NCBI GenBank assembly: GCA_951406725.2
Contig: OX597827.1
Span: forward strand, 79,298,001-79,362,000
Length of the DNA stretch: 64,000 nucleotides
Direction of reading: 5' to 3'
From: Octopus vulgaris
Taxonomy: Eukaryota
How positions within the stretch are numbered: position 1 is the first letter of the stretch; the number at the start of each line of letters is the position of its first letter. The translations under genes were made by a program, and so were the position numbers. Below the pieces are notes generated by a model. The model did no database searches, was not told where the DNA came from, and saw only the letters and a list, made by a program, of their open reading frames with translations. Shown one piece after another: positions 145-48,677 of the stretch.

Positions 145-3114
145 CTATGTTGGCTGTAGATAGGTATCTTGTATTTGTTGTCCCTTTAGTATTGTGGCTG
201 CAACTGGATTGTCATTGGTATATTCTGCAAAATATCAAATATACAAACACAAATTACATTTCAACATAACAACTCCAATATATAAAGATAGAAACATTGA
301 TCTTGTATTACACTAAGCATAACATTATATATTGTCCTACAGTAATAAAGGCAATTACATTTATAAGTTATGTTTTGATAAAAGTTACCTGGTTCTGCAG
401 GTATCTCATCATATGGTTTAGTCTTGCCATTACTCTTGCTAGCTTCTCTGTCCTTTTGGGATGTTAAGGTGTCACTGTTGTAAGACATGATGGAACTGGT
501 GCGACGTCCATGACTATAGATTGAATCACATCTCTGTGGATAGTAGAAAGTGGAATCCTGTATAAATACAAGTTTAGATCACTTCTAATAAAACAGTCTG
601 AGGGACTGAAGTTGAGTTTTTTGTAGTAATAACTGTACATAGATGAATAATGGATAAAATACTTCTACCTTCATAATAATAAGCAAAAAAACATCAATTA
701 TCCAAAATAATATTTACCTGAGGCACAGGTGGAAGTCTCCTTTGTGTTGTTGAGAATTTCCATTCATCTGGTGTCTGTTCCATCTCCAGAAAAAACTGAC
801 TTTTAGATTTTATTGTCTGAAGATTTCGGTTAAATATCTCTTCTGCATTTCTTGTTATTGCAACAGGATTGTTAGTCTGATACAGTAATTGTCTCATCTC
901 AGTCTGAGAGAGAAAGTTGGGATTCTCTGCTGTTGTGGGTGAGTTATTTGTGTGATTAATACATCTGAAAACACACAGTGTTATGGACACTACAATAGCC
1001 ACAGATAGTATTACAGCTGCTGCTACAATGATAATTATCCAAGTCATATTCAGGTCGTGACCAGATTGGAATGGCACAGCAGTCAACATTGGAGATGTAT
1101 CATTACTAACAAACAGTGTTAGTATGATAGCAGTTGTTGCTGATTGAACTGGAGTACCACCGTCTTTCACTATAAACTGCAGCTCATATGTTCCTGCATC
1201 ATTTTGGTAAACTGTGCGAGAGAAAGATAACACACCAGTGTGTGAGTTCACTGTAAACAGGTTTTTATCATTGGATCTCAGTATTCCATATGTGAGGAAA
1301 GCATTGTTTCCAGTGTCTTTGTCAGATGCTCTCAGAATTGTGATGTCCTTCTTACTGTGTGGATGGTAGTGGACATCGAGATTGTAAGGGTCATTATTAG
1401 GAAACGTAAAATACGGAGCATTATCATTTTTATCTAGAATCTCAATAACAATATTGGCAGTGTCATTGAGAGAAGGTGTTCCATTATCTTTCACTAAAAC
1501 CTTGAACTTATAGATGTCTTTCATTTCTCGATCTATTGATTGTGATGTAGAAATAAATCCATATTTGGTCAGTTGGAAAGGAATGTTATCATTGTTGTTA
1601 TCATTGATGATAGAATATGTAAGTTGGCCTCCATCTCCAAGATCAGGGTCTGTAGCATTGATGAAGCCAATAGGGAAGTCAACTTTCTGGTTTTCATAGG
1701 TGAGGAATTGGAATGTCTCTTTGGTAAAATGTGGTTCTACATCATTGACATCAGTTACTTTGACAGAGAAATATTTTTTACTTTCTAGTTGAGGTGACCC
1801 CATGTCATGACACACAACAGATACTTTATAGTGGTCCCTTATTTCTCTGTCAAGATGACCCTTAACAATCATTTTATATTCTTTAGAATCTATTTTGGCA
1901 AGTTTAAACTTATCATGTTTTAAATCACAGATAACCTCACCATTAGGTCCACTATCAGTGTCAGTGACCATAACATAAGCTATAAAACTATCTACTTCAC
2001 TGTCTTCTGGAACTGCTGCTGAGCTCTCTGATAAAGGAGATACAAAATCTATGTTTATCAATGGAGCAGTATTCCTATTATTAATCACATAAATGTGAAC
2101 TCTAGCTACTGTCTTTAGAGGAGGGTTGCCGCCATCCTGCGCTTCAATAAATAATTTATAAGATTGCCTTTTACTGAAATGAAAATTATCATGTAAAAAT
2201 AAATCTCCAGTTTTCTTATCTAAAACAAAATATTTCTGGATATTTTGAGATGTTTTATGGTTGAAATGATAAGAAATCTTTCCATTGTCTCCAGAATCTC
2301 GATCTGTGGCTTTTAAAGTAAGAATTGGTAAATGTCTTTGATGTGAATTATTTATAGAGATATTATAGAATTTCTGTGAAAATACAGGTGTGTTATCATT
2401 GACATCTGTCACAGATATGTGTACCTTGAGTGTAGCTGTTTTGGCAGGGTTTCCTCCATCTTTAGCTTCCAGTGTCAACATATATGAATATTTTAGTTCC
2501 CTGTCTAATTTATCTGCTAAAGTCAGTTCAGGTATAAAAATACCATCCTGTTTTGTGACTGAGAGAGAAAATGGTTCTCTTTTACTTTTTTTAATCATAT
2601 ATGTAATTTGAGAATTCTTTATTGAAATATCTTGATCAATGGCATTTAAAAGTGAGATTTTAGTCCCTTTAAATTGGCTTTCGAGAAATTCAATTTCAAC
2701 TTCATTCTGTGGAAACTCTGGAGAATGGTCATTGATGTCTTCTATTAATATTTTTATCCTTAGAATCTTCATAAACGTTTTTCCTTTCCTCACTGCCACC
2801 TTCACAGTTCTAGAACATTCCTTGTTGTATGTACACAGAGACTCAGCATCCAGTGTTTGAGTAGTGTATAGTTTTCCTGAGTTGGTGACATTAAATAAGT
2901 GAGAACCACTCTCGACTGTCCTTTGTAGTTGTGTAAATGTAATGAGAGTGTGTTGTTGATGCGTGAGAGGGTGTGATAAGTTGGAGTCAACAGCAATGTC
3001 TCCTATATAGGTGTGAGGTCTGTCTTCTTCCTTGACATGGTATGCAATATCTATGGACAGTACAAGGGTGATCAGTAAAGGTAGAAGACACAGTAGACCA
3101 ATATATTGTGTCAT
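145..3114 (-). CDS. Protocadherin g1 (signal peptide, 6 EC repeats, TM, cytoplasmic tail), ~873 aa; coding exons 3114-718, 533-389, 224-145
   Basis: Cadherin motifs (LDRE, DxNDN, DxD), Pcdh-type EC1 LDAESLCxxxxxC and a hydrophobic TM. Donor CAG|GTAAAT at 718/717, acceptor CAG|AGA at 534/533, donor CCAG|GTAACT at 389/388, acceptor TGCAG|AA at 225/224. The phases join in frame to EYTNDNPVAATILKGQQIQDTYLQPT*. Confidence 0.93.
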
Positions 3115-5141
3115 GTCTGGAATTCTTCATCACACTTTAGCAGGAGAGTTTTCTACAAAACACAACAGACATTGAAAGTCTAAATAAAATTCAATAAAAT
3201 AAACTAAAATAAAGCAGTCATTGTGTAGATGTTATTCATTGTACTTTGTTATATTCCCTGAAGCTAAACTTAAAACTTTAAACTAATAGTTTACAAACAT
3301 AACGTTATTGTTGCAGTTATACCATGCCTCCATCTAGCTGAGAACCAGACTTTGATATGTGATGTAAAGTGATGGTCTGAGCCAATGTAAGAACTTTTAT
3401 ATGGTCATTCTGTCTGTGGTAGTAAAAGGCAGCCCAACCTTTAAATCTGATTCTACAGTCTTACAAATAGATGAATAAACTTGATAAAGTAATCCTGAAT
3501 ATAATAAACCAGAAATGATGACAGAATGTTGACAGCTTGAATAATGCAGACTCTGACAAGGAAATATTAAAACCCTTTAAATTTACATCACAGAGAAAGA
3601 TTTTAGTCGTTGGAGATTAATGATATATACAATATGAAAACAACAGCAATTCTACTCTAAGCTGATGGTAGGTCTAATTCTACAATTAGACCTACCATCT
3701 AAGCTGATGGTAGGTCCTAATCAAAAGAGAAGTAAAATATATTGTGAAATTAATGAACAGTAGTCTCTCGAGATATTTAATTAATGAAGTTTAGGTTTGC
3801 AGAGCGAAAGATTAAGGACATGATAACCTAAATGTACTTTATTGTGTCTTGTTGGTTGGAATTCCTCTCTTTTGTTACCGTATTTCTGTTGGAATACATT
3901 GCTTTTGTTTCGATCAATTTCAAAACTACAGCAAAAATTTAGTAAAATAACTTTGTCAAAATGAATCTGGTGATTGGAACACAAATCAAGATGAAATTTG
4001 ATGGAAAGCTTTAATTTAAAGCACTTTAAGAAGGAAGTTAATATCATAAAACCTGGCACAATTGGAGGCAAGTTGGTATCAGAGAGGGTGAAAGACATTT
4101 GATAATAATATACCTGTTTCACAGAAATGTAGGATAAGTGTATCTAAGACACCTAATAACCTGGATAGAAGATGTCTTGTTGACTTATTTCACAAATAAC
4201 TGACAAAGAATAGATTATAAAATTATGTGGAAATACTTTACAAAAATGGGAATTATAAAATGGTGGAGTGATATGTTGATGGAAAAATATGTATAATTAT
4301 CTTCATGAAATATGCAGATATCTTTCTTATCAAATAAATTGTAATAAAAGTAATTTAATCCCTATTTACATATAACATTTAGATTTTATACATATAAGAT
4401 ATTTCTGTTATATTATATATAGTATTAACAACTGTAATAATGAAATGTTTGTTAATTTGTAGAGAAATGATATTATATCTGAATAATTCTCAATATTCAT
4501 CTTTTGTTGTCAGGATTAATATATTTTAACAACACATGACAATATAATTGCTTTATATATCACACTAAATATCTTAAATAACAAATCTACACGAAATAAT
4601 ATTGACCAACATCTTTACATAACTTGGCTTTGTAAATGAGCAATCGCATGTGTTGATCTAAATGGCCTCCAAATGTATTCAATGAGTTTCTTTGCCCAAG
4701 AAGTCGGGAAGACACTTAGCAAGAAATGTAGATGTAAATTGAAAGGAGGAAAATACATAATGATAATAATAATAATAATGATGGTGATGACGAGGATAAA
4801 TATTCTTGGTTTATTATATACAAAAAAATACACAATGGATATTCAGTAGGGCATATATATATATATGTAGATATATATCTATAAATATATGTATTTACAT
4901 ACACACACACACACACACATATATAAGGATATGAATGATCCGTTAGAGTTAATTAAAGCTAGAGAAAATTAGGATTTTATTAGGGATATATCGCGAGAAC
5001 AAAGATATGAACTATATCAACATACATTATCAACACCCAGTCTTGTTGGCTATCAATCAATGTTTTGTGATAGTTAAATGTTTATATATATATCTAATTT
5101 AGACTAGTTTAAACAAATAATGTGTACTATATATTGTAGCA

Positions 5142-5146
<5 letters not shown>

Positions 5147-5214
<68 letters not shown>
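5147..5214. repeat. (TA)n microsatellite
   Basis: Uninterrupted TA run. Many other (TA)n, (CA)n, (GA)n, (TAA)n and (CAT)n runs occur in the long introns. Confidence 0.95.
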
Positions 5215-5217
<3 letters not shown>

Positions 5218-5286
5218 GTGTGTGTGATTCAAAGACGTAATCCAGTTCAAAGTAATTGTATTACAATGACTACTGCAGTTCTTGTT

Positions 5287-5441
5287 GTTAATGGTGGAAG
5301 TGATGGCTAGATCTCTCGATCCTCCACTGTCCCAGTCCCTGTATATATACAACATGGCAGACATTTTAGATATTATCCTTACCCTGTCTTTCATTAGAAA
5401 CACAAATAATATAAATGTTATAATGAATATGAAAAGATAAT

Positions 5442-5479
<38 letters not shown>

Positions 5480-6695: not shown

Positions 6696-9600
6696 CTATG
6701 TTGGTTGTAGATAGGTATCTTGTATTTGTTGTCCCTTTAGTATTGTGGCTGCAACTGGATTGTCATTGGTATATTCTGCAAAATATCAAATATACAAACA
6801 CAAATTACATTTCAATATAATAACTCCAATATATAAAGATAGAAACATTGATCTTATATTACACTAAGCATAACATTATATATTGTCCTACAGTAATAAA
6901 GGCAATTACATTTATATGTTATGTTTCGGTAAAAGTTACCTGGTTCTGCAGGTATCTCATCATATGGTTTAGTCTTGCCATTACTCTTGCTAGCTTCTCT
7001 GTCCTTTTGGGATGTTAAGGTGTCACTGTTGTAAGACATGATGGAACTGGTGCGACGTTCTTGACTATGGATTGAATCACATCTCTGTTGATTATAGAAA
7101 AAGGAATCTGATATCAATACAAGTTTAGATCACTCCTAATAAAACATTTCTTATATAAAGTGTATTCTATTTCGATAATGAATATTGTGTTTTGCTATCA
7201 CTAGGACAACAAAGAACAATTAATTCAGAATGTCACAGAAAAGCCAGAAATTTTAACCAAAGGAACGAAACGTTTCATACACATGAGAATCTGAAATAGA
7301 TATTTGAAAGAAATATTTGAATGCACATCAATAATTGATTAAATACTTTTGTATTTATAATCAAAAGGATATCAGAGATGTAAAATAATATTTACCTGAG
7401 GCACAGGTGGAAGTCTCCTTTGTGTTGTTGAGAATTTCCACTCATCTGGTGTCTGTTCCATCTCCAGAAAAAACTGACTTTTAGATTTTATTGTCTGAAG
7501 ATTTCGGTTAAATATCTCTTCTGCATTTCTCGTTATTGCAACAGGATTGTTGGTTTGATACAGTAATTGTCTCATCTCAGTCTGAGAGAGAAAGTTGGGA
7601 TTCTCTGCTGTTGTGGGTGAGTTATTTGTGTGATTAATACATCTGAAAACACACAGTGTTATGGACACTACAATAGCCACAGATAGTATTACAGCTGCTG
7701 CTACAATGATAATTACCCAAGTCATATTCAGGTCGTGACCAGACTGGAATGGCACAGCAGTCAACATTGGAGATGTATCATTACTAACAAACAGTGTTAG
7801 TATGATAGCAGTTGTTGCTGATTGAACTGGAGTACCACCGTCTTTCACTATAAACTGCAGCTCATATGTTCCTGCATCATTTTGGTAAACTGTGCGAGAG
7901 AAAGATAACACACCAGTGTGTGAGTTCACTGTAAACAGGTTTTTATCATTGGATCTCAGTATTCCATATGTGAGGAAAGCATTGTTTCCAGTGTCTTTGT
8001 CAGATGCTTTCAGAATTGTGATGTCCTTCTTACTGTGTGGATGGTAGTGGACATCGAGATTGTAAGGGTCATTATTAGGAAACGTAAAATACGGAGCATT
8101 GTCATTTTTATCCAGAATCTCAATAACAATATTGGCAGTGTCATTGAGAGAAGGTGTTCCATTATCTTTCACTAAAACCTGGAACTTATAGATGTCTTTC
8201 ATTTCTCGATCTATTGATTGTGATGTAGAAATGAATCCATATTTTGTCAGTTGGAAAGGAATGTTATCATTGTTGTTATCATTGATGATAGAATATGTAA
8301 GTTGGCCTCCATCTCCAAGATCAGGGTCTGTAGCATTGATGAAGCCAATAGGGAAGTCAACTTTCTGGTTTTCATAGGTGAGGAATTGGAAAGTCTCTTT
8401 GGTAAAATGTGGTTCTACATCATTGACATCAGTTACTTTGACAGAGAAATATTTTTTACTTTCTAGTTGAGGTGACCCCATGTCATGACACACAATAGAT
8501 ACTTTATAGTGGTCCCTTATTTCTCTGTCAAGATGACCTTTAATAACCATTTTATACTCTTTAGAATCTATTTTAGCAAGGTTAAACTTATCATGTTTTA
8601 AATCACAGATAACCTCACCGTTAGGTCCACTATCATTGTCAGTGACCATAACATAAGCTATAAAACTATCTACTTCACTGTCTTCTGAAACTGTTGCTGA
8701 GCTCTCTGATAAAGGAGATACAAAATCTATATTAATCATGGGTACATTATTTCTGTTGTTAATTATTTGAATCTGAACTGCTGCAACAGACTTTTTTGGT
8801 GGCTTACCTCCATCCATTGCTTCAATAAATAATTTATAAGATTGTTTTTTACTAAATTGAAAATTATCATGTAAAAATAAATCTCCAGTTTTCTTATCTA
8901 AAACAAAATATTTCTGGACATTTCGAGACGTTTTATGGTTGAAATGGTAAGAAATTTTCCCATTATCCTCAGAATCTTGATCTGTGGCTTTTAAAGTAAG
9001 AATTGGTAAGTGTCTTTGATGTGAATTGCTTACAGAAATGTTGTAGAGTTTCTGTGAAAATACAGGTGTATTATCATTGACATCTGTCACAGTTATGTGT
9101 ACCTTGAGTGTAGCTGTTTTGGGAGGATTCCCTCCATCTTTAGCTTCCAAGATCAACATATATGAATCTTTTACTTCCCTGTCTAATCTATCTTCTAGAA
9201 TGAGTTTAGGTATAAAAATACCATCATGTTTTGTGACAGAAAGTGAAAATGGTTCTCTTTTACTTTTCTTAATCATATATGTAATTTGAGAATTTTTGAC
9301 TGAAATATCCTGATCAATGGCATTTAGAAGGGAGACCATTTCCCCTTTTCTCTCTTTCTCAGAAAATTCAATCTCAACTTCATTCTGTGGAAATTCTGGA
9401 GAATGGTCATTGATGTCTTCTATTAATATTTTAATTTTTAGAATCTTCATAAAAGTTTTTCCTTTCCTCACTGCTACTTTAACTGTTCTGGAACATTCCT
9501 TGTTGTATGTACACAGAGACTCAGCATCCAGTGTTTGAGTAGTGTATAGTTTTCCTGAGTTGGTGACGTTAAATAAGTGAGAACCACTATCGACTGTCCT

Positions 9601-9792
9601 TTGTAGTTGTGTAAATGTAACGAGAGTGTGTTGTTGATGTGTGAGAGGGTGTGATAAGTTAGAGTCAACAGCAACGTCTCCTATATAGGTGTGAGGTCTG
9701 TCTTCTTCATTGACGTGGTATGTAATATCTGTGGACAGTGCAAGGGTGATCAGTAAATGTAGAAGACACAGTAGACCAATATATGCTGTCAT
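6696..9792 (-). CDS. Protocadherin g2, ~873 aa; coding exons 9792-7396, 7084-6940, 6775-6696
   Basis: Same domain motifs and splice sites as g1; large exon coding part 2397 bp. Confidence 0.93.
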
Positions 9793-12985: not shown

Positions 12986-15900
12986 CTATGTTGGCTGTAG
13001 ATAGGTATCTTGTATTTGTTGTCCCTTTAGTATTGTGGCTGCAACTGGATTGTCATTGGTATATTCTGCAAAATATCAAATATACAAACACAAATTACAT
13101 TCCAATATAACAACTCCAATATATAAAGATAGAAACACTGATCTTATATTACACTAAGCATAACATTATATATTGTCCTACAGTAATAAAGGCAATTACA
13201 TTTATATGTTATGTTTTGATAAAATTACCTGGTTCTGCAGGTATCTCATCATATGGTTTAGTCTTGCCATTACTCTTGCTAGCTTCTCTGTCCTTTTGGG
13301 ATGTTAAGGTGTCACTGTTGTAAGACATGATGGAACTGGTGCGACGTCCTTGACTATGGATTGAATCACATCTCTGTTGATTACAGAAAAATGAATGTTA
13401 TATCAATACAAGTTCAGATGACTCCTAATAAAACAGTTCTCATATAAAGCATATTCTATTTAGATAATGAATATTGTATTTTGCTATCACAAGGACACCA
13501 AAGAACAATTAATTCAGAATGCCACAGAAAAGCCAGAAATTTTAACCAAAGGAACGAAACGTTTCATACACATGAGAATCTGAAATAGATATTTGAAAGA
13601 AATATTTGAATGCACATCAATAATTGATTAAATACTTTTGTATTTATAATCGAAAGGATATTTACCTGAGGCACAGGTGGAAGTCTCCTTTGTGTTGTTG
13701 AGAATTTCCACTCATCTGGTGTCTGTTCCATCTCCAGAAAAAACTGACTTTTAGATTTTATCGTCTGAAGATTTCGGTTAAATATCTCTTCTGCATTTCT
13801 CGTTATTGCAACAGGATTGTTAGTTTGATACAGTAATTGTCTCATCTCAGTCTGAGAGAGAAAGTTGGGATTCTCTGCTGTTGTGGGTGAGTTATTTGTG
13901 TGATTAATACATCTGAAAACACACAGTGTTATGGACACTACAATAGCCACAGATAGTATTACAGCTGCTGCTACAATGATAATTACCCAAGTCATATTCA
14001 GGTCGTGACCAGACTGGAATGGCACAGCAGTCAACATTGGAGATGTATCATTACTAACAAACAGTGTTAGTATGATAGCAGTTGTTGCTGATTGAACTGG
14101 AGTACCACCGTCTTTCACTATAAACTGCAGCTCATATGTTCCTGCATCATTTTGGTAAACTGTGCGAGAGAAAGATAACACGCCAGTGTGTGAGTTCACT
14201 GTAAACAGGTTTTTATCATTGGATCTCAGTATTCCATATGTGAGGAAAGCATTGTTTCCAGTGTCTTTGTCAGATGCTCTCAGAATTGTGATGTCCTTCT
14301 TACTGTGTGGATGGTAGTGGACATCGAGATTGTAAGGGTCATTATTAGGAAACGTAAAATACGGAGCATTATCATTTTTATCTAGAATCTCAATAACAAT
14401 ATTGGCAGTGTCATTGAGAGAAGGTGTTCCATTATCTTTCACTAAAACCTGGAACTTATAGATGTCTTTCATTTCTCGATCTATTGATTGTGATGTAGAA
14501 ATAAATCCATATTTTGTCAGTTGGAAAGGAATGTTATCATTGTTGTTATCATTGATGATAGAATATGTAAGTTGGCCTCCATCTCCAAGATCAGGGTCTG
14601 TAGCATTGATGAAGCCAATAGGGAAGTCAACTTTCTGGTTTTCATAGGTGAGGAATTGGAATGTCTCTTTGGTAAAATGTGGTTCTACATCATTGACATC
14701 AGTTACTTTGACAGAGAAATATTTTTTACTTTCTAGTTGAGGTGACCCCATGTCATGACACACAATAGATACTTTATAGTGGTCCCTTATTTCTCTGTCA
14801 AGATGGCCCTTAACAATCATTTTATATTCTTTAGAATCAATTTTGGCAAGTTTAAACTTATCATGTTTTAAATCACAGATAACCTCACCATTAGGTCCAC
14901 TATCAGTGTCAGTGACCATAACATAAGCTATAAAACTACCAATTTTACTTGCTTCTGAAACTGCTGCTGAGCTCTCTGATAAAGGAGATACAAAATCTAT
15001 ATTAATCATGGGTACATTATTTCTGTTATTAATTATTTGAATCTGAACTGCTGCAACAGACTTTTTTGGTGGCTTACCTCCATCCATTGCTTCAATAAAT
15101 AATTTATAAGATTGCATCTTAGTAAACTGAAAATTATCATGTAAAAATAAATCTCCAGTGTTCTTATTTAATACAAAATATTTCTGGATATTTCGAGATG
15201 TTTTATGGTTGAAATGGTAAGAAATCTTTCCATTGTCTCCAGAATCTTGATCTGTGGCTTTTAAAGTAAGAATTGGTAAATGTCTTTGATGTGAATTATT
15301 GATAGAAATGTTGTACATTTCCTGTGAAAATACAGGTATGTTATCATTAGCATCTGTCACAGTTATGTGTACCTTGAGTGTAGCTGTTTTGGGAGGATTC
15401 CCTCCATCTTTAGCTTCCAAGATCAACATATATGAATCTTTTACTTCCCTGTCTAATCTGTCTTCTAGAATTAGCTCAGGTATAAAAATACCCTTTTGTT
15501 TTGTGACAGAAAGTGAAAATGGTTCTCTTTTACTTTTCTTAATCATATATGTAATTTGGGAATTTTTTATCGAAATATCCTGATCAATGGCATTTAGAAG
15601 GGAGACCATTTCCCCTTTTCTGTCTCTCTCAGAAAATACAATCTCAGCTTCATTCTGTGGAAATTCTGGAGAATGGTCATTGATGTCTTCTATTAATATT
15701 TTTATCCTTAAAATTTTCATAAATGTTTCTTCTTTCCTCACTGCTACTTTAACAATTCTGAAACATTCTTTGTTGTATGTACACAGAGACTCAGCATCCA
15801 GTGTTTGAGTAGTGTAGAGTTTTCCTGAGTTGGTGACATTAAATAAGTGAGAACCACTCTCGACTGTCCTTTGTAGTTGTGTAAATGTAATGAGAGTGTG

Positions 15901-16062
15901 TTGTTGATGTGTGAGAGGGTGTGATAAGTTGGAGTCAACAGCAATGTCTCCTATATAGGTGTGAGGCCTGTCTTCTTCCTTGACATGGTATGTAATATCT
16001 ATGGACAGTACAAGGGTGATCAGTAAATGTAGAAGACACAGTAGACCAATATATGCTGTCAT
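12986..16062 (-). CDS. Protocadherin g3, ~873 aa; coding exons 16062-13666, 13373-13229, 13065-12986
   Basis: Same motifs and splice sites; exon-3 donor variant GTAATT. Confidence 0.93.
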
Positions 16063-20775: not shown

Positions 20776-23700
20776 CTATGTTGGCTGTAGATAGGTATCT
20801 TGTATTTGTTGTCCCTTTAGTATTGTGGCTGCAACTGGATTGTCATTGGTATATTCTGCAAAATATCAAATATACAAACACAAATTACATTTCAATATAA
20901 CAACTCCAATATATAAAGATAGAAACATTGATCTTGTATTACACTAAGCATAACATTATATATTGTCCTACAGTAATAAAGGCAATTACATTTATATGTT
21001 ATGTTTTGATAAAAGTTACCTGGTTCTGCAGGTATCTCATCATATGGTTTAGTCTTGCCATTACTCTTGCTAGCTTCTCTGTCCTTTTGGGATGTTAAGG
21101 TGTCACTGTTGTAAGACATGATGGAACTGGTACGACGTCCTTGACTATGGATTGAATCACATCTCTGTGGATTAGAAAACAAAGCAGGGTGAATCATTAG
21201 GCTAAAAAGAAGAAACTTTTGCATTTATATTCTAGAATGCCCCAGGTAAGACACAAGGAAGGGTAATACAATCAGACCATCAGAATTATTAATATTCAAT
21301 AATTTATTTGTATAAAAGAATTAGAGAAACAAGTTTAGTTGTTAAATGAAATAATTCTACTAATTCTGAAAGGTGTAAATTGATAGGAAAGCTTTTACAT
21401 TTCTAGAAAGAAGAGGAAAAAATATACAAACTAGAACATAACTGTTATAACCACAACTGTGATATATCATTTCCGAAACATCAATTAAAATAATATTTAC
21501 CTGAGGCACAGGTGGAAGTCTCCTTTGTGTTGTCGAGAATTTCCATTCATCTGGTGTCTGTTCCATCTCCAGAAAAAACTGACTTTTAGATTTTATTGTC
21601 TGAAGATTTCGGTTAAATATCTCTTCTGCATTTCTCGTTATTGCAACAGGATTGTTAGTCTGATACAGTAATTGTCTCATCTCAGTCTGAGAGAGAAAGT
21701 TGGGATTCTCTGCTGTTGTGGGTGAGTTATTTGTGTGATTAATACATCTGAAAACACACAGTGTTATGGACACTACAATAGCCACAGATAGTATTACAGC
21801 TGCTGCTACAATGATAATTACCCAAGTCATATTCAGGTCGTGACCAGACTGGAATGGCACAGCAGTCAACATTGGAGATGTATCATTACTAACAAACAGT
21901 GTTAGTATGATAGCAGTTGTTGCTGATTGAACTGGAGTACCACCGTCTTTCACTATAAACTGCAGCTCATATGTTCCTGCATCATTTTGGTAAACTGTGC
22001 GAGAGAAAGATAACACACCAGTGTGTGAGTTCACTGTAAACAGGTTTTTATCATTGGATCTCAGGATTCCATATGTGAGGAAAGCATTGTTTCCAGTGTC
22101 TTTGTCAGATGCTCTCAGAATTGTGATGCCCTTCTTACTGTGTGGATGGTAGTGGACATCGAGATTGTAAGGGTCATTATTAGGAAACGTAAAATACGGA
22201 GCATTATCATTTTTATCTAGAATCTCAATAACAATATTGGCAGTGTCATTGAGAGAAGGTGTTCCATTATCTTTCACTAAAACCTTGAACTTATAGATGT
22301 CTTTCATTTCTCGATCTATTGATTGTGATGTAGAAATAAATCCATATTTTGTCAGTTGGAAAGGAATGTTATCATTGTTGTTATCATTGATGATAGAATA
22401 TGTAAGTTGGCCTCCATCTCCAAGATCAGAGTCCGTAGCATTGATGAAGCCAATAGGGAAGTCAACTTTCTGGTTTTCATAGGTGAGGAATTGGAATGTC
22501 TCTTTGGTAAAATGTGGTTCTACATCATTGACATCAGTTACTTTGACAGAGAAATATTTTTTACTTTCTAGTTGAGGTGACCCCATGTCATGACACACAA
22601 TAGATACTTTATAGTGGTCCCTTATTTCTCTGTCAAGATGGCCCTTAACAATCATTTTATATTCTTTAGAATCTATTTTGGCAAGTTTAAACTTATCATG
22701 TTTTAAATCACAGATAACCTCACCATTAGGTCCACTATCAGTGTCAGTGACCATAACATAAGCTATAAAACTACCAATTTTACTTGCTTCTGAAACTGCT
22801 GCTGAACTCTCTGTTAAAGGAGATACAAAATCTATATTTATCAATGGAGCATTATTCTCATTATTAATTACATGAAGCTGAACTCTGGTAACAGATTTTT
22901 TGGGTGGCTGTCCTCCATCCCTTGCTTCAATAAACAATTTATAAGATTGCTTTTTACTAAATTGAAAATTATCGTGTAAAAATAAATCTCCAGTTTTCTT
23001 ATTTAATACAAAATATTTCTGGACATTTTGAGATGTTTTATGGTTGAAATGATAAGAAATCTTTCCATTGTCTCCAGAATCTTTATCTGTGGCTTTTAAA
23101 GTAAGAACTGGTAAATGTCTTTGATGTGAATTATTTATAGAGATGTTGTAGAGTTTCTGTGAAAATGAAGGTGTGTTATCATTGACATCTGTTACAGATA
23201 TGTGTACCTTGAGTGTAGCTGTGTTGGGAGGGTTTCCTCCATCTTTAGCTTGAACTGCTAAAATATATGAGTCTTGAAGTTCCCTATCTAATGTTTCTTC
23301 TAGAATGAGTTCAGGTATGAAAATACCATCCTGTTTTGTGACAGAGAGAGAAAATGGTTCACTCTTGCTTTTTTCAATCATATATGCAAGTTGGGAATTT
23401 TTTATTGAAATATCTTTATCAATTGCATTTAGAAGAGATATTCTAGTTCCTTTACTGTCTGTCTCAGAAAATGCAATTTCAACTTCATTCTGTGGAAATT
23501 CTGGAGAATGGTCATTGATGTCCTGTATCAATATTTTTATTTTAAGGATTTTCATAAAGGTTTGTCCCTTTCTCACAGCTACTTTAACTATTCTGGAACA
23601 TTCCTTGTTGTATGTACACAGAGACTCAGCATCCAGTGTTTGAGTAGTGTATAGTTTTCCTGAGTTGGTGACATTAAATAAGTGAGAACCACTCTCGACT

Positions 23701-23897
23701 GTCCTTTGTAGTTGTGTAAATGTAATGAGAGTGTGTTGTTGATGTGTGAGAGGGTGTGATAAGTTGGAGTCAACAGCAATGTCTCCTATATAGGTGTGAG
23801 GTCTGTCTTCTTCCTTGACATGGTATGTAATATCTATGGACAGTACAAGGGTGATCAGTAAATGTAGAAGACACAGTAGACCAATATATGCTGTCAT
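20776..23897 (-). CDS. Protocadherin g4, ~873 aa; coding exons 23897-21501, 21164-21020, 20855-20776
   Basis: Same motifs and splice sites. Confidence 0.93.
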
Positions 23898-29972: not shown

Positions 29973-32900
29973 CTATGTTGGCTGTAGATAGGTATCTTGT
30001 ATTTGTTGTCCCTTTAGTATTGTGGCTGCAACTGGATTGTCATTGGTATATTCTGCAAAATATCAAATATACAAACACAAATTACATTTCAATATAACAA
30101 CTCCAATATATAAAGATAGAAACATTGATCTTGTATTACACTAAGCATAACATTATATATTGTCCTACAGTAATAAAGGCAATTACATTTATATGTTATG
30201 TTTTGATAAAAGTTACCTGGTTCTGCAGGTATCTCATCATATGGTTTAGTCTTGCCATTACTCTTGCTAGCTTCTCTGTCCTTTTGGGATGTTAAGGTGT
30301 CACTGTTGTAAGACATGATGGAACTGGTGCGACGTCCTTGACTATGGATTGAATCACATCTCTGTGGATTATAGAAAGAGGAATCTTATATCAATACAAG
30401 TTTAGATCACTCCTAATTATTTGTTTGTATATAAAGTGTATTGCATTTCTATAATGAATACTGTAACTGTTTTGATATCTGTAACATTATACAAAATAAT
30501 CAATTCAAATGGCGAAAGCTATACAAAAAATATTAACTAAAGACATAAAACATTATTTATATATGAGGGACTGAAGTTGAGTTTTCTGTAGCAATAATCG
30601 TACATATGTCAATAATGGATTGAATATTTTTATAAGAAATAAAACAAAAACATCTATTACCCAAAATAATAATTACCTGAGGCACAGGTGGAAGTCTCCT
30701 CTGTGTTGTTGAGAATTTCCACTCATCTGGTGTCTGTTCCATCTCCAGAAAAAACTGACTTTTAGATTTTATTGTCTGAAGATTTCGGTTAAATATCTCT
30801 TCTGCATTTCTCGTTATTGCAACAGGATTGTTAGTCTGATACAGTAATTGTCTCATCTCAGTCTGAGAGAGAAAGTTGGGATTCTCTGCTGTTGTGGGTG
30901 AGTTATTTGTGTGATTAATACATCTGAAAACACACAGTGTTATGGACACTACAATAGCCACAGATAGTATTACAGCTGCTGCTACAATGATAATTACCCA
31001 AGTCATATTCAGGTCGTGACCAGACTGGAATGGCACAGCAGTCAACATTGGAGATGTATCATTACTAACAAACAGTGTTAGTATGATAGCAGTTGTTGCT
31101 GATTGAACTGGAGTACCACCGTCTTTCACTATAAACTGCAGCTCATATGTTCCTGCATCATTTTGGTAAACTGTGCGAGAGAAAGATAACACACCAGTGT
31201 GTGAGTTCACTGTAAACAGGTTTTTATCATTGGATCTCAGTATTCCATATGTGAGGAAAGCATTGTTTCCAGTGTCTTTGTCAGATGCTCTCAGAATTGT
31301 GATGTCCTTCTTACTGTGCGGATGGTAGTGGACATCTAGATTGTAAGGGTCATTATTAGGAAACGTAAAATACGGAGCATTATCATTTTTATCTAGAATC
31401 TCAATAACAATATTGGCAGTGTCATTGAGAGAAGGTGTTCCATTATCTTTCACTAAAACCTTGAACTTATAGATGTCTTTCATTTCTCGATCTATTGGTT
31501 GTGATGTAGAAATAAATCCATATTTTGTCAGTTGGAAAGGAATGTTATCATTGTTGTTATCATTGATGATAGAATATGTAAGTTGGCCTCCATCTCCAAG
31601 ATCAGGGTCTGTAGCATTGATGAAGCCAATAGGGAAGTCAACTTTCTGGTTTTCATAGGTGAGGAATTGGAATGTCTCTTTGGTAAAATGTGGTTCTACA
31701 TCATTGACATCAGTTACTTTGACAGAGAAATATTTTTTACTTTCTAGTTGAGGTGACCCCATGTCATGACACACAATAGATACTTTATAGTGGTCCCTTA
31801 TTTCTCTGTCAAGATGGCCCTTAACAATCATTTTATATTCTTTAGAATCTATTTTGGCAAGTTTAAATTTATCATGTTTTAAATCACAGCTAACCTCACC
31901 ATTAGGTCCACTATCAGTGTCAGTGACCATAACATAAGCTATAAAACTACCAATTTTACTTGCTTCTGAAACAGCTGCTGAACTCTCTGATAAAGGAGAT
32001 ACAAAATCTATATTAATCAATGGAGCATTATTCTGGTTATTAATAATGTAAATCTGGACTTTAGTTACAGAACTTAAGGGTGGATTTCCTCCATCTCGTG
32101 CTTCAATAAATAATTTATAAGACTGCTTTTTACTAAAATGAAAATTATCATGTAAAAATAGATCTCCAGACTTCTCATTTAATACAAAATATGTCAGGAC
32201 ATTTTGAGATGTTTTATGGTTGAAATGGTAAGAAATCTTTCCATTGTCTCCTGAATCTTGATCTGTGGCTTTTAAAGTAAGAATTGGTAAATGTCTTTGA
32301 TGTGAATTACTTATAGAGATGTTGTAGAGTTTCTGTGAAAATGCAGGTGTATTATCATTGACATCTGTCACAGATATGTGTACCTTGAGTGTAGCTGTTT
32401 TGGGAGGGTAGCCTCCATCTTTAGCTTCCAAAGTCAATATATATTTGTCTTTGAGTTCTCTGTCTAATTTATCTTCCAATATTAATTCAGGTATGGAGAC
32501 ACCATCATGTCTTTTTTTGATTGAGAGAGAAAATGGTTCTCTTTTATTTTTCTTGATCATATATGTTATTTGAGAATTCTTTATTGAAATATCTTTATCA
32601 ATGGCATTTGGAAGAGGAATTTTAGTACCTTTACTCTCCCGCTCAGAAAATTCAATTTGAACTTCATTCTTTAGAAATTCTGGAGAATGGTCATTAATGT
32701 CATCTATTAATATTCTTATTTTTAATATTTTCATAAATGTTTCTTCTTTCCTCACTGCTACTTTAACTATTCTGGAACATTCCTTGTTGTATGTACACAG
32801 AGACTCAGCATCCAGTGTCTGAGTAGTGTATAGTTTTCCTGAGTTGGTGACATTAAATAAGTGAGAGCCACTTTCGACTGTCCTTTGTAGTTGTGTAAAT

Positions 32901-33076
32901 GTAATGAGAGTGTGTTGTTGATGTGTGAGAGGGTGTGATAAGTTGGAGTCAACAGCAATGTCTCCTATATAGGTGTGAGGTCTGTCTTCTTCATTGACAT
33001 GGTATATAATATCTATGGACAGTACAAGGGTGATCAGTAAATGTAGAAGACACAGTAGACCAATATATGCTGTCAT
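29973..33076 (-). CDS. Protocadherin g5, ~874 aa; coding exons 33076-30677, 30361-30217, 30052-29973
   Basis: Same motifs and splice sites; 1-codon insertion in EC2 (large exon coding part 2400 bp). Confidence 0.93.
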
Positions 33077-37772: not shown

Positions 37773-40700
37773 CTATGTTGGCTGTAGATAGGTATCTTGT
37801 ATTTGCTGTCCCTTTAGTATTGTGGCTGCAACTGGATTGTCATTGGTATATTCTGCAAAATATCAAATATACAAACACACAAATTACATTCCAACATAAC
37901 AACTCCAATATATAAAGATAGAAACATTGATCTTATATTACACTAAGCATAACATTATATATTGTCCTACAGTAATAAAGGCAATTACATTTATATGTTA
38001 TGTTTTGATAAAAGTTACCTGGTTCTGCAGGTATCTCATCATATGGTTTAGTCTTGCCGTTACTCTTGCTAACTTCTCTGTCCTTTTGGGATGTTAAGGT
38101 GTCACTGTTGTAAGACATGATGGAACTGGTACGACGTTCTTGACTATGGATTGAATCGCATCTCTGTGGATTATAGAAAAAATTAATCTTGTATCAAATA
38201 CAAGTTTAGATTACAGCTAATAAAACAGTCCTTATATAAAGCGTTGGTGCAGAATCCTGCCTGATCATTTCCTGTCTAGTCGTCCAACCTATGCCAGCAT
38301 GGAAGATGGATGTTAAACAATGATTATAAAGGTGATAATAATATTGTAACTGCTCTGCTATCATTAAGACAATAATGATTAATTAATGCAAAGTCACAGA
38401 TTAACTATCAATTTTGATTAAAGTAAGAAATTTTCATATGTATGAGAATCTGAAGTTGATAGTTTATAAATATATTTGAAAATATGTGAATAATGGATAA
38501 AATAATTTTGTATTTAAAATCAAAAGGGTATCAGACGTAAAATAATATTTACCTGAGGCACAGGTGGAAGTCTCCTCTGTGTTGTTGAGAATTTCCACTC
38601 ATCTGGTGTCTGTTCCATCTCCAGAAAAAACTGACTTTTAGATTTTATTGTCTGAAGATTTCGGTTAAATATCTCTTCTGCATTTCTCGTTATTGCAACA
38701 GGATTGTTAGTCTGATACAGTAATTGTCTCATCTCAGTCTGAGAGAGAAAGTTGGGATTCTCTGCTGTTGTGGGTGAGTTATTTGTGTGATTAATACATC
38801 TGAAAACACACAGTGTTATGGACACTACAATAGCCACAGATAGTATTACAGCTGCTGCTACAATGATAATTACCCAAGTCATATTCAGGTCGTGACCAGA
38901 CTGGAATGGCACAGCAGTCAACATTGGAGATGTATCATTACTAACAAACAGTGTTAGTATGATAGCAGTTGTTGCTGATTGAACTGGAGTACCACCGTCT
39001 TTCACTATAAACTGCAGCTCATATGTTCCTGCATCATTTTGGTAAACTGTGCGAGAGAAAGATAACACACCAGTGTGTGAGTTCACTGTAAACAGGTTTT
39101 TATCATTGGATCTCAGTATTCCATATGTGAGGAAAGCATTGTTTCCAGTGTCTTTGTCAGATGCTCTCAGAATTGTGATGTCCTTCTTACTGTGTGGATG
39201 GTAGTGGACATCTAGATTGTAAGGGTCATTATTAGGAAACGTAAAATACGGAGCATTATCATTTTTATCTAGAATCTCAATAACAATATTGGCAGTGTCA
39301 TTGAGAGAAGGTGTTCCATTATCTTTCACTAAAACCTTGAACTTATAGATGTCTTTCATTTCTCGATCTATTGGTTGTGATGTAGAAATGAATCCATATT
39401 TTGTCAGTTGGAAAGGAATGTTATCATTGTTGTTATCATTGATGATAGAATATGTAAGTTGGCCTCCATCTCCCAGATCAGGGTCTGTAGCATTGATGAA
39501 GCCAATAGGGAAGTCAACTTTCTGGTTTTCATAGGTGAGGAATTGGAATGTCTCTTTGGTAAAATGTGGTTCTACATCATTGACATCAGTTACTTTGACA
39601 GAGAAATATTTTTTACTTTCTAGTTGAGGTGACCCCATGTCATGACACACAATAGATACTTTATAGTGGTCCCTTATTTCTCTGTCAAGGTGGCCCTTAA
39701 CAATCATTTTATATTCTTTAGAATCTATTTTGGCAAGTTTAAACTTATCATGTTTTAAATCACAGATAACCTCACCATTAGGTCCACTATCATTGTCAGT
39801 GACCATAACATAAGCTATAAAACTACCAATTTTACTTGCTTCTGAAACTGCTGCTGAGCTCTCTGATAAAGGAGATACAAAATCTATATTTATCAATGGA
39901 GCAGAATTCTGATTATTGACTACATGAATCTGGACTTTGGTTACAGAACTAAGGGGAGGTTTTCCTCCATCTTGTGCTTCTATAAATAATTTATAAGATT
40001 GCTTTTTACTAAAATGAAAGCTGTCATGTAAAAATAAATCTCCAGTTTTCTTATTTAATACAAAATATTTCTGAATATTTCGAGATGTTTTATGGTTGAA
40101 ATGATAAGAAATCTCTCCATTTTGTCTTGAATCTTTATCTGTGGCCTCTAAAGTAAAAATTGCTAAATGTCTTTGATGTGAATTATTTATAGAAATGTTA
40201 TAGACTTTCTGTGAAAATACAGGTACGTTATCATTGACATCAGTTACAGATATGTGTACCTTGAGTGTAGCTGTTTTGGGAGGGTTCCCTCCATCTTTAG
40301 CTTCCAGGGTCAACATATACGAGTCTTTTAGTTCCCTGTCTAATTTGTCTCCTAGAACTAGAGTAGGTATGAAGACACCATCATAACGCTTTTCAACTGA
40401 GAGAGAAAATGGTTCTCTCTTAGTTTTCTTAATCACATATGTTATTTGAGAATTCTTTATTGAAATATCTTCATCAATAGCATTCAGAAGAGAGATTTTA
40501 GTTCCTTTACTCTCCCTTTCAGAAAATTCAATTTCAACTTCATTTTGTGGAAATTCTGGTGAATGGTCATTGATGTCTTCTATTAATATTTTTATCTTTA
40601 GAATTTTCATAAATGTTTCTTCTTTCCTCACTGCTACTTTAACAATTCTGGAACATTCCTTGTTGTATGTACACAGAGACTCAGCATCCAGTGTTTGAGT

Positions 40701-40952
40701 AGTGTATAGTTTTCCTGAGTTGGTGACATTAAATAAATGAGAACCACTCTCGACTGTCCTTTGTAGTTGTGTAAATGTAATGAGAGTGTGTTGTTGATGT
40801 GTGAGAGGGTGTGATAAGTTAGAGTCAACAGCAATGTCTCCTATATAGGTGTGAGGTCTGCCTTCTTCCTTGACATGGTATGTAATATCTATGGACAGTA
40901 CAAGGGTGATCAGTAAATGTAGAAGACACAGTAGACCAATATATGCTGTCAT
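37773..40952 (-). CDS. Protocadherin g6, ~874 aa; coding exons 40952-38553, 38163-38019, 37852-37773
   Basis: Same motifs and splice sites; large exon coding part 2400 bp. Confidence 0.93.
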
Positions 40953-45745: not shown

Positions 45746-48677
45746 CTATGTTGGCTGTAGATAGGTATCTTGTATTTGTTGTCCCTTTAGTATTGTGGCT
45801 GCAACTGGATTGTCATTGGTATATTCTGCAAAATATCAAATATACAAACACAAATTACATTTCAATATAACAACTCCAATATATAAAGATAGAAACATTG
45901 ATCTTGTATTACACTAAGCATAACATTATATATTGTCCTACAGTAATAAAGGCAATTATATTTATATGTTATGTTTTGATAAAAGTTACCTGGTTCTGCA
46001 GGTATCTCATCATATGGTTTAGTCTTGCCATTACTCTTGCTAGCTTCTCTGTCCTTTTGGGATGTTAAGGTGTCACTGTTGTAAGACATGATGGAACTGG
46101 TGCGACGTCCTTGACTATGGATTGAATCACATCTCTGTTGATTAGAAAACAGAGCAGAGTGAATAATGTTAAATACAAGACATGTTAACATTTGTATTCT
46201 AAAATGTTCCTGATAAAAGACAAGAAAGGCATGCTTTTAAAATGTGTAGAAATATTATGAAATTTCTTCAACTATATTTACCTGAGGCACAGGTGGAAGT
46301 CTCCTTTGTGTTGTTGAGAATTTCCACTCATCTGGTGTCTGTTCCATCTCCAGAAAAAACTGACTTTTAGATTTTATTGTCTGAAGATTTCGGTTAAATA
46401 TCTCTTCTGCATTTCTCGTTATTGCAACAGGATTGTTAGTCTGATACAGTAATTGTCTCATCTCAGTCTGAGAGAGAAAGTTGGGATTTTCTGCTGTTGT
46501 GGGTGAGTTATTTGTGTGATTAATACATCTGAAAACACACAGTGTTATGGACACTACAATAGCCACAGATAGTATTACAGCTGCTGCTACAATGATAATT
46601 ACCCAAGTCATATTCAGGTCGTGACCAGACTGGAATGGCACAGCAGTCAACATTGGAGATGTATCATTACTAACAAACAGTGTTAGTATGATAGCAGTTG
46701 TTGCTGATTGAACTGGAGTACCACCGTCTTTCACTATAAACTGCAGCTCATATGTTCCTGCATCATTTTGGTAAACTGTGCGAGAGAAAGATAACACACC
46801 AGTGTGTGAGTTCACTGTAAACAGGTTTTTATCATTGGATCTCAGTATTCCATATGTGAGGAAAGCATTGTTTCCAGTGTCTTTGTCAGATGCTCTCAGA
46901 ATTGTGATGTCCTTCTTACTGTGTGGATGGTAGTGGACATCGAGATTGTAAGGGTCATTATTAGGAAACGTAAAATACGGAGCATTATCATTTTTATCTA
47001 GAATCTCAATAACAATATTGGCAGTGTCATTGAGAGAAGGTGTTCCATTATCTTTCACTAAAACCTGGAACTTATAGATGTCTTTCATTTCTCGATCTAT
47101 TGGTTGTGATGTAGAAATAAATCCATATTTTGTCAGTTGGAAAGGAATGTTATCATTGTTGTTATCATTGATGATAGAATATGTAAGTTGGCCTCCATCT
47201 CCAAGATCAGGGTCTGTAGCATTGATGAAGCCAATAGGGAAGTCAACTTTCTGGTTTTCATAGGTGAGGAATTGGAATGTCTCTTTGGTAAAATGTGGCT
47301 CTACATCATTGACATCAGTTACTTTGACAGAGAAATATTTTTACTTTCTAGTTGAGGTGACCCCATGTCATGACACACAATAGATACTTTATAGTGGTCC
47401 CTTATTTCTCTGTCAAGATGGCCCTTAACAATCATTTTATATTCTTTAGAATCTATTTTGGCAAGTTTAAATTTATCATGTTTTAAATCACAGATAACCT
47501 CACCATTAGGTCCACTATCAGTGTCAGTGACCATAACATAAGCTATAAAACTATCTACTTCACTGTCTTCTGAAACTGCTGCTGAGCTCTCTGATAAAGG
47601 AGATACAAAATCTATATTTATCAATGGAGCATTATTCTGGTTATTGACTATGTGAATCTGAACTGCTGCAACAGATTTTTTGGGTGGCTTTCCTCCATCT
47701 CTTGCTTCAATAAATAACTTATAAGACTCCTTTTTACTAAAATGAAAGTTGGCATGTAAAAATAAATCTCCAGTTTTCTTATCTAATACAAAATATTTCT
47801 GGATATTTCGAGATGTTTTATGGTTGAAATGATACAAAATCCTTCCATTGTCTCCAGAATCTTTATCTGTGGCCTTTAAAGTAAAAATTGGTAAATGTCT
47901 TTGATGTGAATTACTTACAGAGGTGTTGTACAGGTCGTGTGAAAATACAGGTGTGTTATCATTGACATCAGTTACAGATATGTGTACCTTCAGTGTAGCT
48001 GTTTTGGGAGGGTTCCCTCCATCTTTAGCTTCCAAGGTTAACATGTATGAGACTTTCACTTCCCTGTCTAACTTATCTTCAAGAATTATTTCAGGTGTGA
48101 AAATACCTTTGTGCTTTGTGACAGAGAGAGAAAATGGTTCTCTTTTATTTTTCTTGATCATATATGTAATTTGGGAATTTTTTACTGAAATATCTTCATC
48201 AATAGCATTCAGAAGAGATATTTTATCGCCTTTTCTATCTCTTTCAGAAAATTCAATTTCAACTTCATTCTGTGGAAATTCTGGGGAATGATCATTGATG
48301 TCATCTATTAATATTTTAATTCTTAATATTTTCAAAAATGTTTTCCCTTTCCTCACTGCTACTTTAACAATTCTGGAACATTCCCTGTTGTATGTACACA
48401 GAGACTCAGCATCCAGTGTCTGAGTAGTGTATAGTTTTCCTGAGTTGGTGACATTAAATAAGTGAGAACCACTCTCGACTGTCCTTTGTAGTTGCGTAAA
48501 TGTAATGAGAGTGTGTTGTTGATGTGTGAGAGGGTGTGATAAGTTGGAGTCAACAGCAATGTCTCCAATATAGGTGTGAGGTCTGTCTTCTTCCTTGACA
48601 TGGTATGTAATATCTATGGACAGTACAAGGGTGATCAGTAAATGTAGAAGACACAGTAGACCAATATATGCTGTCAT
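45746..48677 (-). CDS. Protocadherin g7, frameshifted as assembled (1-bp deletion, T6 to T5 at 47338-47342); exons 48677-46282, 46134-45990, 45825-45746
   Basis: Full-length homolog, 2396 bp instead of 2397; no other disablement seen. Pseudogene or sequencing error. Confidence 0.8.

What the first reader, a model, noticed from the sequence alone, without database searches (positions are those of the whole stretch)
2090..2700. Second co-varying module, EC2:EC3, assorting independently of the EC1:EC4 module
Seen: EC2 RKG(E/D) in g2, g3, g7 always goes with EC3 PPKKSVAAV. The 1-aa-longer EC2 loop KR(H/Y)DGV in g5, g6, g8 always goes with EC3 PPLSSVTKV. EC2 L(A/G)D in g1, g6, g8 goes with EC3 AQD, while ILE(D/E) goes with A(R/M)D. 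These groupings cut across the EC1/EC4 grouping, and no two genes share the full set of patches. Inference: a combinatorial identity code built by shuffling short matched interface patches through gene conversion.
Basis: partly seen in the sequence, partly recalled or inferred. Interest (0 to 1): 0.82.

Follow-up and report, generated by a model that had tools for sequence, protein, structure and literature searches.

The report
Octopus protocadherins shuffle matched binding patches

Summary
The window holds 8 of 23 close tandem octopus protocadherin paralogs. In the 15 paralogs outside the window one pairing replicates: the long EC2 DE loop KR(H/Y)DGV goes with EC3 LSSVTKV (13 of 15 concordant, p=0.010). 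RKG(E/D):KKSVAAV and L(A/G)D:AQD fail (p=1). A further post-hoc pair, EC2 161:EC3 291, also appears in Argonauta. Both pairs are independent of the EC1:EC4 module in this genome. Linkage decays to background within about 60 nt, sites between partners are unlinked, and one tree is rejected. A blind scan finds signal only for EC1×EC4 and EC2×EC3, the domain pairs that touch in vertebrate antiparallel dimers. Best reading: short-tract gene conversion plus selection for self-matching trans-interface patches. Binding, contacts and isoform discrimination are untested, and most residue contacts mapped from vertebrates do not co-vary. The scan's only related note found is the EC1:EC4 note on this same stretch.

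The parts
715..3114 (-). g1 large exon (signal peptide, EC1-6, TM, start of cytoplasmic tail); short EC2 DE loop, K335
2539..2556 (-). g1 EC2 DE (beta4-beta5) loop, residues 187-193; one codon shorter than in g5/g6/g8; EC2 half of the replicated pair
2098..2118 (-). g1 EC3 FG-loop end and G-strand start, residues 334-340; EC3 half of the replicated pair (K335 with short loop, S335 with long loop, 21 of 23)
2632..2634 (-). codon 161, EC2 BC loop (K versus E/Q); co-varies with 291; found post hoc
2245..2247 (-). codon 291, EC3 CD loop (R versus Q); partner of 161; g1 itself is one of 2 exceptions among 23
2662..2673 (-).
2512..2520 (-).
2779..2784 (-). EC1 FG loop 111-112 (GK versus EE); EC1 half of the flanking module
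1990..2004 (-). EC4 A'B loop 372-376 (DSEVD versus ASKIG); EC4 half of the flanking module; K112 x non-K374 concordant in 22 of 23
148..539 (-). g1 cytoplasmic exons 2 (about 390-539) and 3 (148-225); every gene unit has its own copies
7393..9792 (-). g2 large exon (short loop, K335)
13663..16062 (-). g3 large exon (short loop, K335)
21498..23897 (-). g4 large exon (short loop, K335, K161/Q291)
30674..33076 (-). g5 large exon (long loop, extra codon 32510-32512; S335 at 32072-32074; K161/Q291)
38550..40952 (-). g6 large exon (long loop, S335)
46279..48677 (-). g7 large exon (short loop, K335); one base missing in an A-run near 47337
55488..57889 (-). g8 large exon (long loop, S335); one base missing in a C-run near 56160

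Best explanation
These tandem octopus protocadherin genes are mosaics of short exchanged segments in EC2-EC3, and a few distant patches stay paired across the copies, likely because each protein binds an identical partner on another cell in an antiparallel EC1-4 dimer and mismatched recombinants are selected against. Shown: mosaicism with short linkage range; homogenised EC1 start and EC4-tail; long-range pairing of DE loop:335, 161:291 and 112:372-376 with unlinked sites between; free assortment of the three pairs in this genome. Inferred: gene conversion (or unequal crossover) as the exchange process; an antiparallel homophilic dimer as in vertebrates; selection on matching. Because the pairs are nested (EC1[EC2-EC3]EC4), one long tract could move an EC2:EC3 pair intact and leave EC1:EC4 matched. 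Which residues touch is unresolved: 161:291 fits the antiparallel geometry, whereas 335 probably marks a G-strand haplotype rather than touching the loop itself. Strict isoform discrimination is untested.
For: Mean r2 falls from 0.103 (6-30 nt, p=0.0005) to 0.054 (61-120 nt, not significant), null 0.045. 8 of 253 gene pairs share significant identical tracts of 56-280 nt. One tree is rejected: likelihood gain 475 versus at most 191 in 60 column permutations. Loop:335 replicates out of window, p=0.011, kinship-aware p=0.0002, and p=0.003 after collapsing sister genes into 17 units; loop and S335 change 8 and 7 times on a background tree. The 38 informative sites between loop and 335 have r2 of at most 0.30, and 0 of 931 synonymous long-range pairs reach 0.5. 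A blind scan of the 6 domain pairs (23 genes plus 17 Argonauta) is significant only for EC1xEC4 (p=0.0002) and EC2xEC3 (161:291 p=0.0014; loop:S335 p=0.0034). 161:291 in Argonauta [[3,6],[8,0]] p=0.009. The patches lie on EC2 DE/BC loops and EC3 CD/FG/G; the DE, CD, FG and G elements are listed as the shared vertebrate trans interface in PMC5115871, the BC loop is not. EC5-6 identity is 0.99/0.98 within genera and 0.90 between, while EC2 is 0.79/0.68 within and 0.70 between.
Against: Two of three reader pairings fail. In this genome alone the blind EC2xEC3 scan is not significant (p=0.16). Out-of-window genes collapsed by kinship give only p=0.08-0.21. In Argonauta loop and S335 each change only twice on the tree, so that support is not independent, and the modules are linked there. 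Independent-pairs tests were underpowered: 1, 3 and 5 supported pairs, none significant. Segment-level Mantel r for EC2 DE versus EC3 FG-G is only 0.11, not significant. Of 11 contact pairs mapped by hand from vertebrate papers, 4 are invariant here and 1 of the 7 testable is nominally significant (154:339, p=0.019), without replication. By cadherin topology (recalled) the DE loop and residue 335 would not face each other directly. 161:291 is post hoc, and K161 sits with K291 in 4 of 12 genes of the sister sub-array. pN/pS is below 1 in every EC domain, 0.11-0.32.
Confidence: 0.62

Rival explanations
1. The EC2:EC3 pairings are chance survivors of many comparisons plus shared descent; only EC1:EC4 is real.
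For: The 8-gene pattern is at chance level. Two of three pairings vanish. 11,372 long-range site pairs were examined. The single-genome family-wise p is 0.16. The Argonauta loop signal tracks one clade.
Against: Loop:LSSVTKV was specified before the 15 outside genes were seen and replicated (p=0.010). Kinship-aware p=0.0002. 161:291 recurs in Argonauta with 6 and 3 changes on the tree. The four domain pairs that do not touch show nothing.
Confidence: 0.17
2. No selection on binding: indel-bearing or mismatch-dense patches resist gene conversion and keep an old two-class ancestry while the sequence around them is scrambled.
For: The loop is a 3-nt indel; 334-339 and 372-376 are mismatch clusters. 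In Argonauta the modules are correlated, as expected from one old split. Resistance of divergent DNA to conversion is general knowledge, recalled.
Against: Resistant islands should share one partition, but the three pairs are mutually independent in this genome. 161 and 291 are single-base sites, each linked to nothing but its partner. Pairs match the domains that touch and often carry complementary charge.
Confidence: 0.1
3. The co-variation is real but compensates for folding, domain orientation or overall dimer affinity, and the isoforms bind each other promiscuously, so there is no identity code.
For: Loop:335 lacks an obvious direct contact and most mapped contacts do not co-vary. Up to 4 genes share the same six-state code. 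No excess of amino-acid change over synonymous change.
Against: Partners are in different domains of an elongated model. Both states of each patch occur in two genera while flanking domains homogenise, which suggests that diversity is kept. Vertebrate beta6/beta8 discriminate at 92% identity through five residues (PMC8901172).
Confidence: 0.08
4. The mosaic is an assembly artefact of a repetitive array.
For: 7 of 23 copies carry single-base indels, most in homopolymer runs. No public contig spans a gene.
Against: Mis-joins would break long-range pairs, not create nested ones. The same patches and pairings occur in database proteins of O. sinensis and Argonauta, and O. sinensis holds near-identical counterparts of L005, L010, L015 and L006 (0-9 differences in EC1-4).
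Confidence: 0.03

Closest known systems
Cephalopod protocadherin arrays (octopus chromosome-14 sub-arrays; PMC9068888, PMC6339937, PMC9795677, passages seen)
   Same: Tandem, same-strand, whole-gene duplicates with their own cytoplasmic exons; closest named proteins are from O. vulgaris, O. sinensis and Argonauta hians. Gene conversion was already suggested from family trees.
   Different: The passages seen give no patch-level mosaic or co-variation analysis; PMC6339937 states that nothing is known of adhesion specificity.
Vertebrate clustered protocadherins alpha/beta/gamma (PMC5001838 and bioRxiv 10.1101/493106, parts 1-2; PMC5106212 passages and section 10; PMC8901172 passages)
   Same: Six EC repeats plus TM in one exon; EC2/EC3 most divergent and distal domains homogenised; correlated, often charge-complementary pairs across EC1:EC4 and EC2:EC3; the EC1 beta6-7 loop with the EC4 post-beta1 loop, and the EC2 beta4-5 loop, are named specificity sites.
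   Different: Independent expansion with no shared constant exons. In vertebrates EC2-3 is described as largely spared by conversion and carrying the phylogenetic signal (PMC4978886); here it is scrambled below about 60 nt, with two-state patches reassorted among paralogs. Binding is measured in vertebrates and untested here.
Non-clustered delta-protocadherins, Pcdh19 (PMC5115871, passages)
   Same: Best fold matches are delta-protocadherin EC1-4/6 structures; a charge-swapped EC2 DE-loop:EC3 salt bridge separates the delta1 and delta2 subfamilies.
   Different: Single dispersed genes. The presumed partner position of that salt bridge (about 321 here, mapped by hand) is invariant in this array.
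Drosophila Dscam1 modular matching (recalled; PMC11272049 seen as a search listing only)
   Same: Identity from combinations of independently varying self-matching modules.
   Different: Dscam1 combines modules by alternative splicing in each cell. Here combinations are fixed in germline genes, and each module is a pair of distant patches.

Membership tests
Protocadherin | Six cadherin repeats with protocadherin-type EC1, TM and cytoplasmic tail | tested here: met
   Pfam Cadherin x5 plus Cadherin_2 above cut-off; best fold matches are protocadherins
Cephalopod clustered protocadherin array | Head-to-tail whole-gene duplicates, each with its own cytoplasmic exons | tested here: met
   23 close paralogs on one strand of G000 C14; exons 2 and 3 repeated in every unit of the window
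Vertebrate clustered Pcdh alpha/gamma | Variable exons spliced to shared constant exons | tested here: not met
   Each gene unit has its own exons 2-3; agrees with PMC9068888
Vertebrate clustered Pcdh (works like) | EC2/EC3 divergent, distal domains homogenised | tested here: met
   pS 0.36 and 0.27 in EC2 and EC3 versus 0.03 in EC5, EC6 and tail
Vertebrate clustered Pcdh (works like) | Co-variation confined to EC1:EC4 and EC2:EC3 | tested here: met
   2 of 6 domain pairs significant in the two-genus scan; EC2xEC3 not significant in this genome alone
Vertebrate clustered Pcdh (works like) | Co-varying residues are direct trans contacts | tested here: inconclusive
   Most patches lie on known interface elements, but 1 of 7 testable mapped contact pairs co-varies
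Vertebrate clustered Pcdh (works like) | Strict homophilic trans specificity | not testable with these tools
   Needs aggregation or SPR assays
Vertebrate clustered Pcdh (works like) | Stochastic single-neuron expression and cis dimers | not tested
   Only assembled contigs of public runs were available
Gene-conversion mosaic | Segment trees conflict, short-range linkage, shared identical tracts | tested here: met
   conversion versus double crossover not distinguished

The most novel reading that the evidence does not exclude
Octopods build neuronal identity barcodes by germline shuffling: short conversion tracts reassort several two-state lock-and-key patch pairs (EC1 112:EC4 372-376, EC2 DE loop:EC3 334-339, EC2 161:EC3 291, perhaps EC2 191:EC3 249) among tandem protocadherins, and selection keeps only self-matching combinations. 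This would be a Dscam-like combinatorial code reached by recombination, whose rules can be read from one genome.
Probability: 0.35. Interest if true: 0.85.

Novelty: new variant of a known kind. Interest (0 to 1): 0.64.

Why it matters
Cephalopod protocadherins expanded independently of vertebrate ones, and their binding mode and specificity are described as unknown (PMC6339937). Pairing restricted to EC1:EC4 and EC2:EC3 is indirect sequence evidence that they use the vertebrate antiparallel homophilic dimer, and it names a few residues whose swap should switch or break binding. It is also a clear candidate for epistatic selection, seen as long-range linkage among paralogs that are otherwise in near linkage equilibrium. 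My literature searches returned no such analysis for cephalopods. Albertin 2015 and Noonan 2004 were not held, Wang and Ragsdale 2017 was not read, and no supplements were opened, so prior description cannot be excluded.

Tried and rejected
Complex prediction of two copies of g5 EC1-4 gave no verdict (score 0.01; the alignment was not used); it counts neither way. Independent-pairs tests on background trees were underpowered. E140:K335 looked like a charge pair by eye in this genome but ran the other way in Argonauta (read), so it was dropped. 197:335 is strong in Argonauta (p=0.002) but not here (p=0.21). 154:339 is nominal here only. Reader pairs 151:334/335 and 201:327 are not significant in any of the three sets. 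Codon-level dN/dS was not run because recombination at this scale invalidates it; only pairwise pN/pS was computed. Public runs were short contigs and could not phase patches 390-790 nt apart. The sister sub-array (L020-L032) was inspected by eye only. Rows dropped before counts: diverged edge genes L016-L018 and L019; 17 Argonauta proteins of the more distant group (below 70% identity); exact duplicates and fragments among O. sinensis hits; rows lacking the region tested (n is given per test). O. sinensis is partly orthologous and is not counted as independent.

Full report
What the window is. Eight minus-strand genes, g1-g8, each have a 2.4-kb exon for signal peptide, EC1-6 and TM and their own two cytoplasmic exons. 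A search of the own genome found 23 copies at 89-100% identity within about 180 kb of G000 C14, three diverged edge copies and a sister sub-array. The nearest named proteins are protocadherins of O. vulgaris, O. sinensis and Argonauta hians. I fetched the 15 core copies outside the window and used them as an out-of-sample test. Residues are numbered on g5, Met=1.

Observation. With eight genes this is expected: 12 EC2 and 20 EC3 partitions share 4, against a permutation mean of 2.6 (P=0.25). In the 15 outside genes, KR[HY]DGV with LSSVTKV holds ([[6,1],[1,7]], p=0.010), and so does long loop with S335 ([[8,1],[1,5]], p=0.011); over all 23 genes loop and 335 agree in 21. RKG[ED] with KK[ST]VAAV ([[0,3],[2,10]]) and L[AG]D with AQD ([[1,2],[6,6]]) fail, p=1. 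EC1 K112 with EC4 372-376 holds strongly (14 of 15 outside, p=0.0014; Argonauta 15 of 15) and is independent of the loop pair here (p=0.68), though not in Argonauta (p=0.007).

Exchange between copies. Among 171 informative sites, r2 decays to the null of 0.045 within about 60 nt; synonymous sites alone show the same short-range excess (p=0.003 at 6-30 nt). Eight of 253 gene pairs share significant identical tracts of 56-280 nt. Four EC2-EC3 segments each reject the other segments' trees, and the summed likelihood gain is 475 against at most 191 in 60 permutations. pS is 0.27-0.37 from late EC1 through EC3 and about 0.03 in EC5 to the tail. EC5-6 groups by genus (0.99 and 0.98 within, 0.90 between), whereas EC2 does not (0.79 and 0.68 within, 0.70 between). 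O. sinensis holds both near-identical counterparts and new combinations, for example a g8-like EC2 with both the EC1 and EC4 patches in the other state.

Long-range pairs. The top-ranked of 11,372 pairs over 100 nt apart are loop:335 and 112:372-376. The 38 sites between loop and 335 reach r2 of at most 0.30, and none of 931 synonymous long-range pairs reaches 0.5. A new pair, K161 with Q291 versus E/Q161 with R291, holds in 21 of 23 genes, in 13 of 13 O. sinensis units, and as [[3,6],[8,0]] in Argonauta; each site is linked only to its partner. A blind family-wise scan over six domain pairs, combining 23 genes with 17 Argonauta proteins, is significant only for EC1xEC4 and EC2xEC3. A weaker candidate, K191 with acidic 249, holds in 4 of 4 K191 genes here and 3 of 3 in O. 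sinensis; it is post hoc and untestable in Argonauta.

Limits. In this genome alone EC2xEC3 is not family-wise significant (p=0.16). Kinship-aware simulation gives p=0.0002 for loop:335 and collapsing sister genes gives p=0.003, but outside-only collapsed units give 0.08-0.21. In Argonauta loop and S335 each change twice on the tree, so that set adds little for this pair; here they change 8 and 7 times. Independent-pairs tests lacked power. K161 coexists with K291 in 4 of 12 sister-array genes. The Argonauta set is what searches returned and may be incomplete.

Structure. The monomer model (mean pLDDT 87.5) matches protocadherin EC1-4 structures. It puts 111-112 in the EC1 FG loop, 372-376 after EC4 strand A', 189-190 in the EC2 DE loop, 161 in the EC2 BC loop, 291 in the EC3 CD loop and 334-335 at the FG/G junction. 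PMC5115871 lists the EC2 A-B loop, B strand, D-E loop and the EC3 C-D loop, F, G and F-G loop as shared trans-interface elements (passages). PMC5001838 says the EC4 post-beta1a loop contacts the EC1 beta6-7 loop (part 2). Mapping vertebrate pairs by hand through the alignments, gammaA 128:257 and gammaB 125:253 fall near 157:289 and 156:287, beside 161:291; gammaB3 159:302 and 156:216 fall near 193:341 and 190:250. The mapping is approximate. Tested directly, only 1 of 7 variable mapped pairs co-varies. By recalled cadherin topology the DE loop would face the lower G strand, not 335, so 335 is best read as a marker of a G-strand haplotype.

Mechanism. Shown: mosaic copies, nested long-range pairs, and free assortment of the pairs in this genome. 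Inferred: short-tract conversion reshuffles EC2-EC3; recombinants whose facing patches mismatch lose self-binding and are purged; both states persist because difference between paralogs is favoured. Pairing inside one gene between domains that would meet only across cells is what an antiparallel homophilic dimer predicts. Whether isoforms discriminate is open: three two-state modules give 8 matched classes, up to 4 genes share a code, and uniqueness comes from further variation (at least 10 differences over 90 putative interface positions).

Comparison and verdict. The genes are members of a known cephalopod array and behave like vertebrate clustered protocadherins in domain-level divergence and interface co-variation. 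They differ in lacking shared constant exons and in the fine scrambling of EC2-3, which PMC4978886 describes as largely spared in vertebrates (passages). My searches found no such analysis for cephalopods; two key papers were not held and supplements were not opened. Verdict: observation partly confirmed, one of three pairings real, idea partly supported; new variant of a known kind; interest 0.64.

Noticed in passing
window 47337 (g7) and 56160 (g8); L003, L006, L001, L012, L015: 7 of 23 copies carry single-base indels, most in homopolymer runs; g7 and L003 share the same site. Contigs of 4 of 4 public runs show only the intact form at the g7 and g8 sites, but these regions are shared by all paralogs and contigs drop rare variants. 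Assembly error is likely, not proven.
   Followed up: partly
P0124, P0125, P0126, P0133, P0017, P0140, P0146, P0148, P0149: 9 of 10 database models checked for this array start at an internal Met (about residue 115) and lack the signal peptide and most of EC1, though the open frame extends upstream.
   Followed up: partly
window 2545-2547 (codon 191) and 2371-2373 (codon 249), g1 coordinates: K191 goes with acidic 249 in 4 of 4 genes here and 3 of 3 in O. sinensis; next to a vertebrate DE-loop:EC3 A-strand contact. Post hoc candidate for a fourth pair.
   Followed up: partly
L020-L032 (G000 C14 79.46-79.61 Mb): Sister sub-array of 13 genes; by eye the EC2 DE loop and EC3 CD loop types go together, and basic EC1 111-112 goes with loss of K374, also in Argonauta. 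Not tested for ancestry effects.
   Followed up: partly
O. sinensis P0123: Breaks both the EC1:EC4 and loop:335 pairings at once, as a single crossover or mis-join between EC2 and EC3 would.
   Followed up: no
L019 (G000 C14 near 79.904 Mb): A separate 811-aa open protocadherin frame about 500 kb away has an EC1 90% identical to this array but diverges after it, suggesting EC1 homogenisation over long range.
   Followed up: no
window 3661-3720: Short inverted and duplicated element upstream of g1 (a repeated 'ctaagctgatggtaggtc' with its reverse complement between), seen.
   Followed up: no
window 5200-6100 and equivalents in the other gene units: About 900 nt beyond exon 3 is conserved at 84-96% between units and holds a further exon-like stretch with low-complexity Ser/Thr/Gln-type codons; may be 3' UTR or an alternative exon.
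   Followed up: no
window 25510-25862/59733-60088, 33761-34276/41696-42196, 51034-51687: Intergenic repeats outside the gene unit, probably mobile or tandem elements, near the composition shifts.
   Followed up: no
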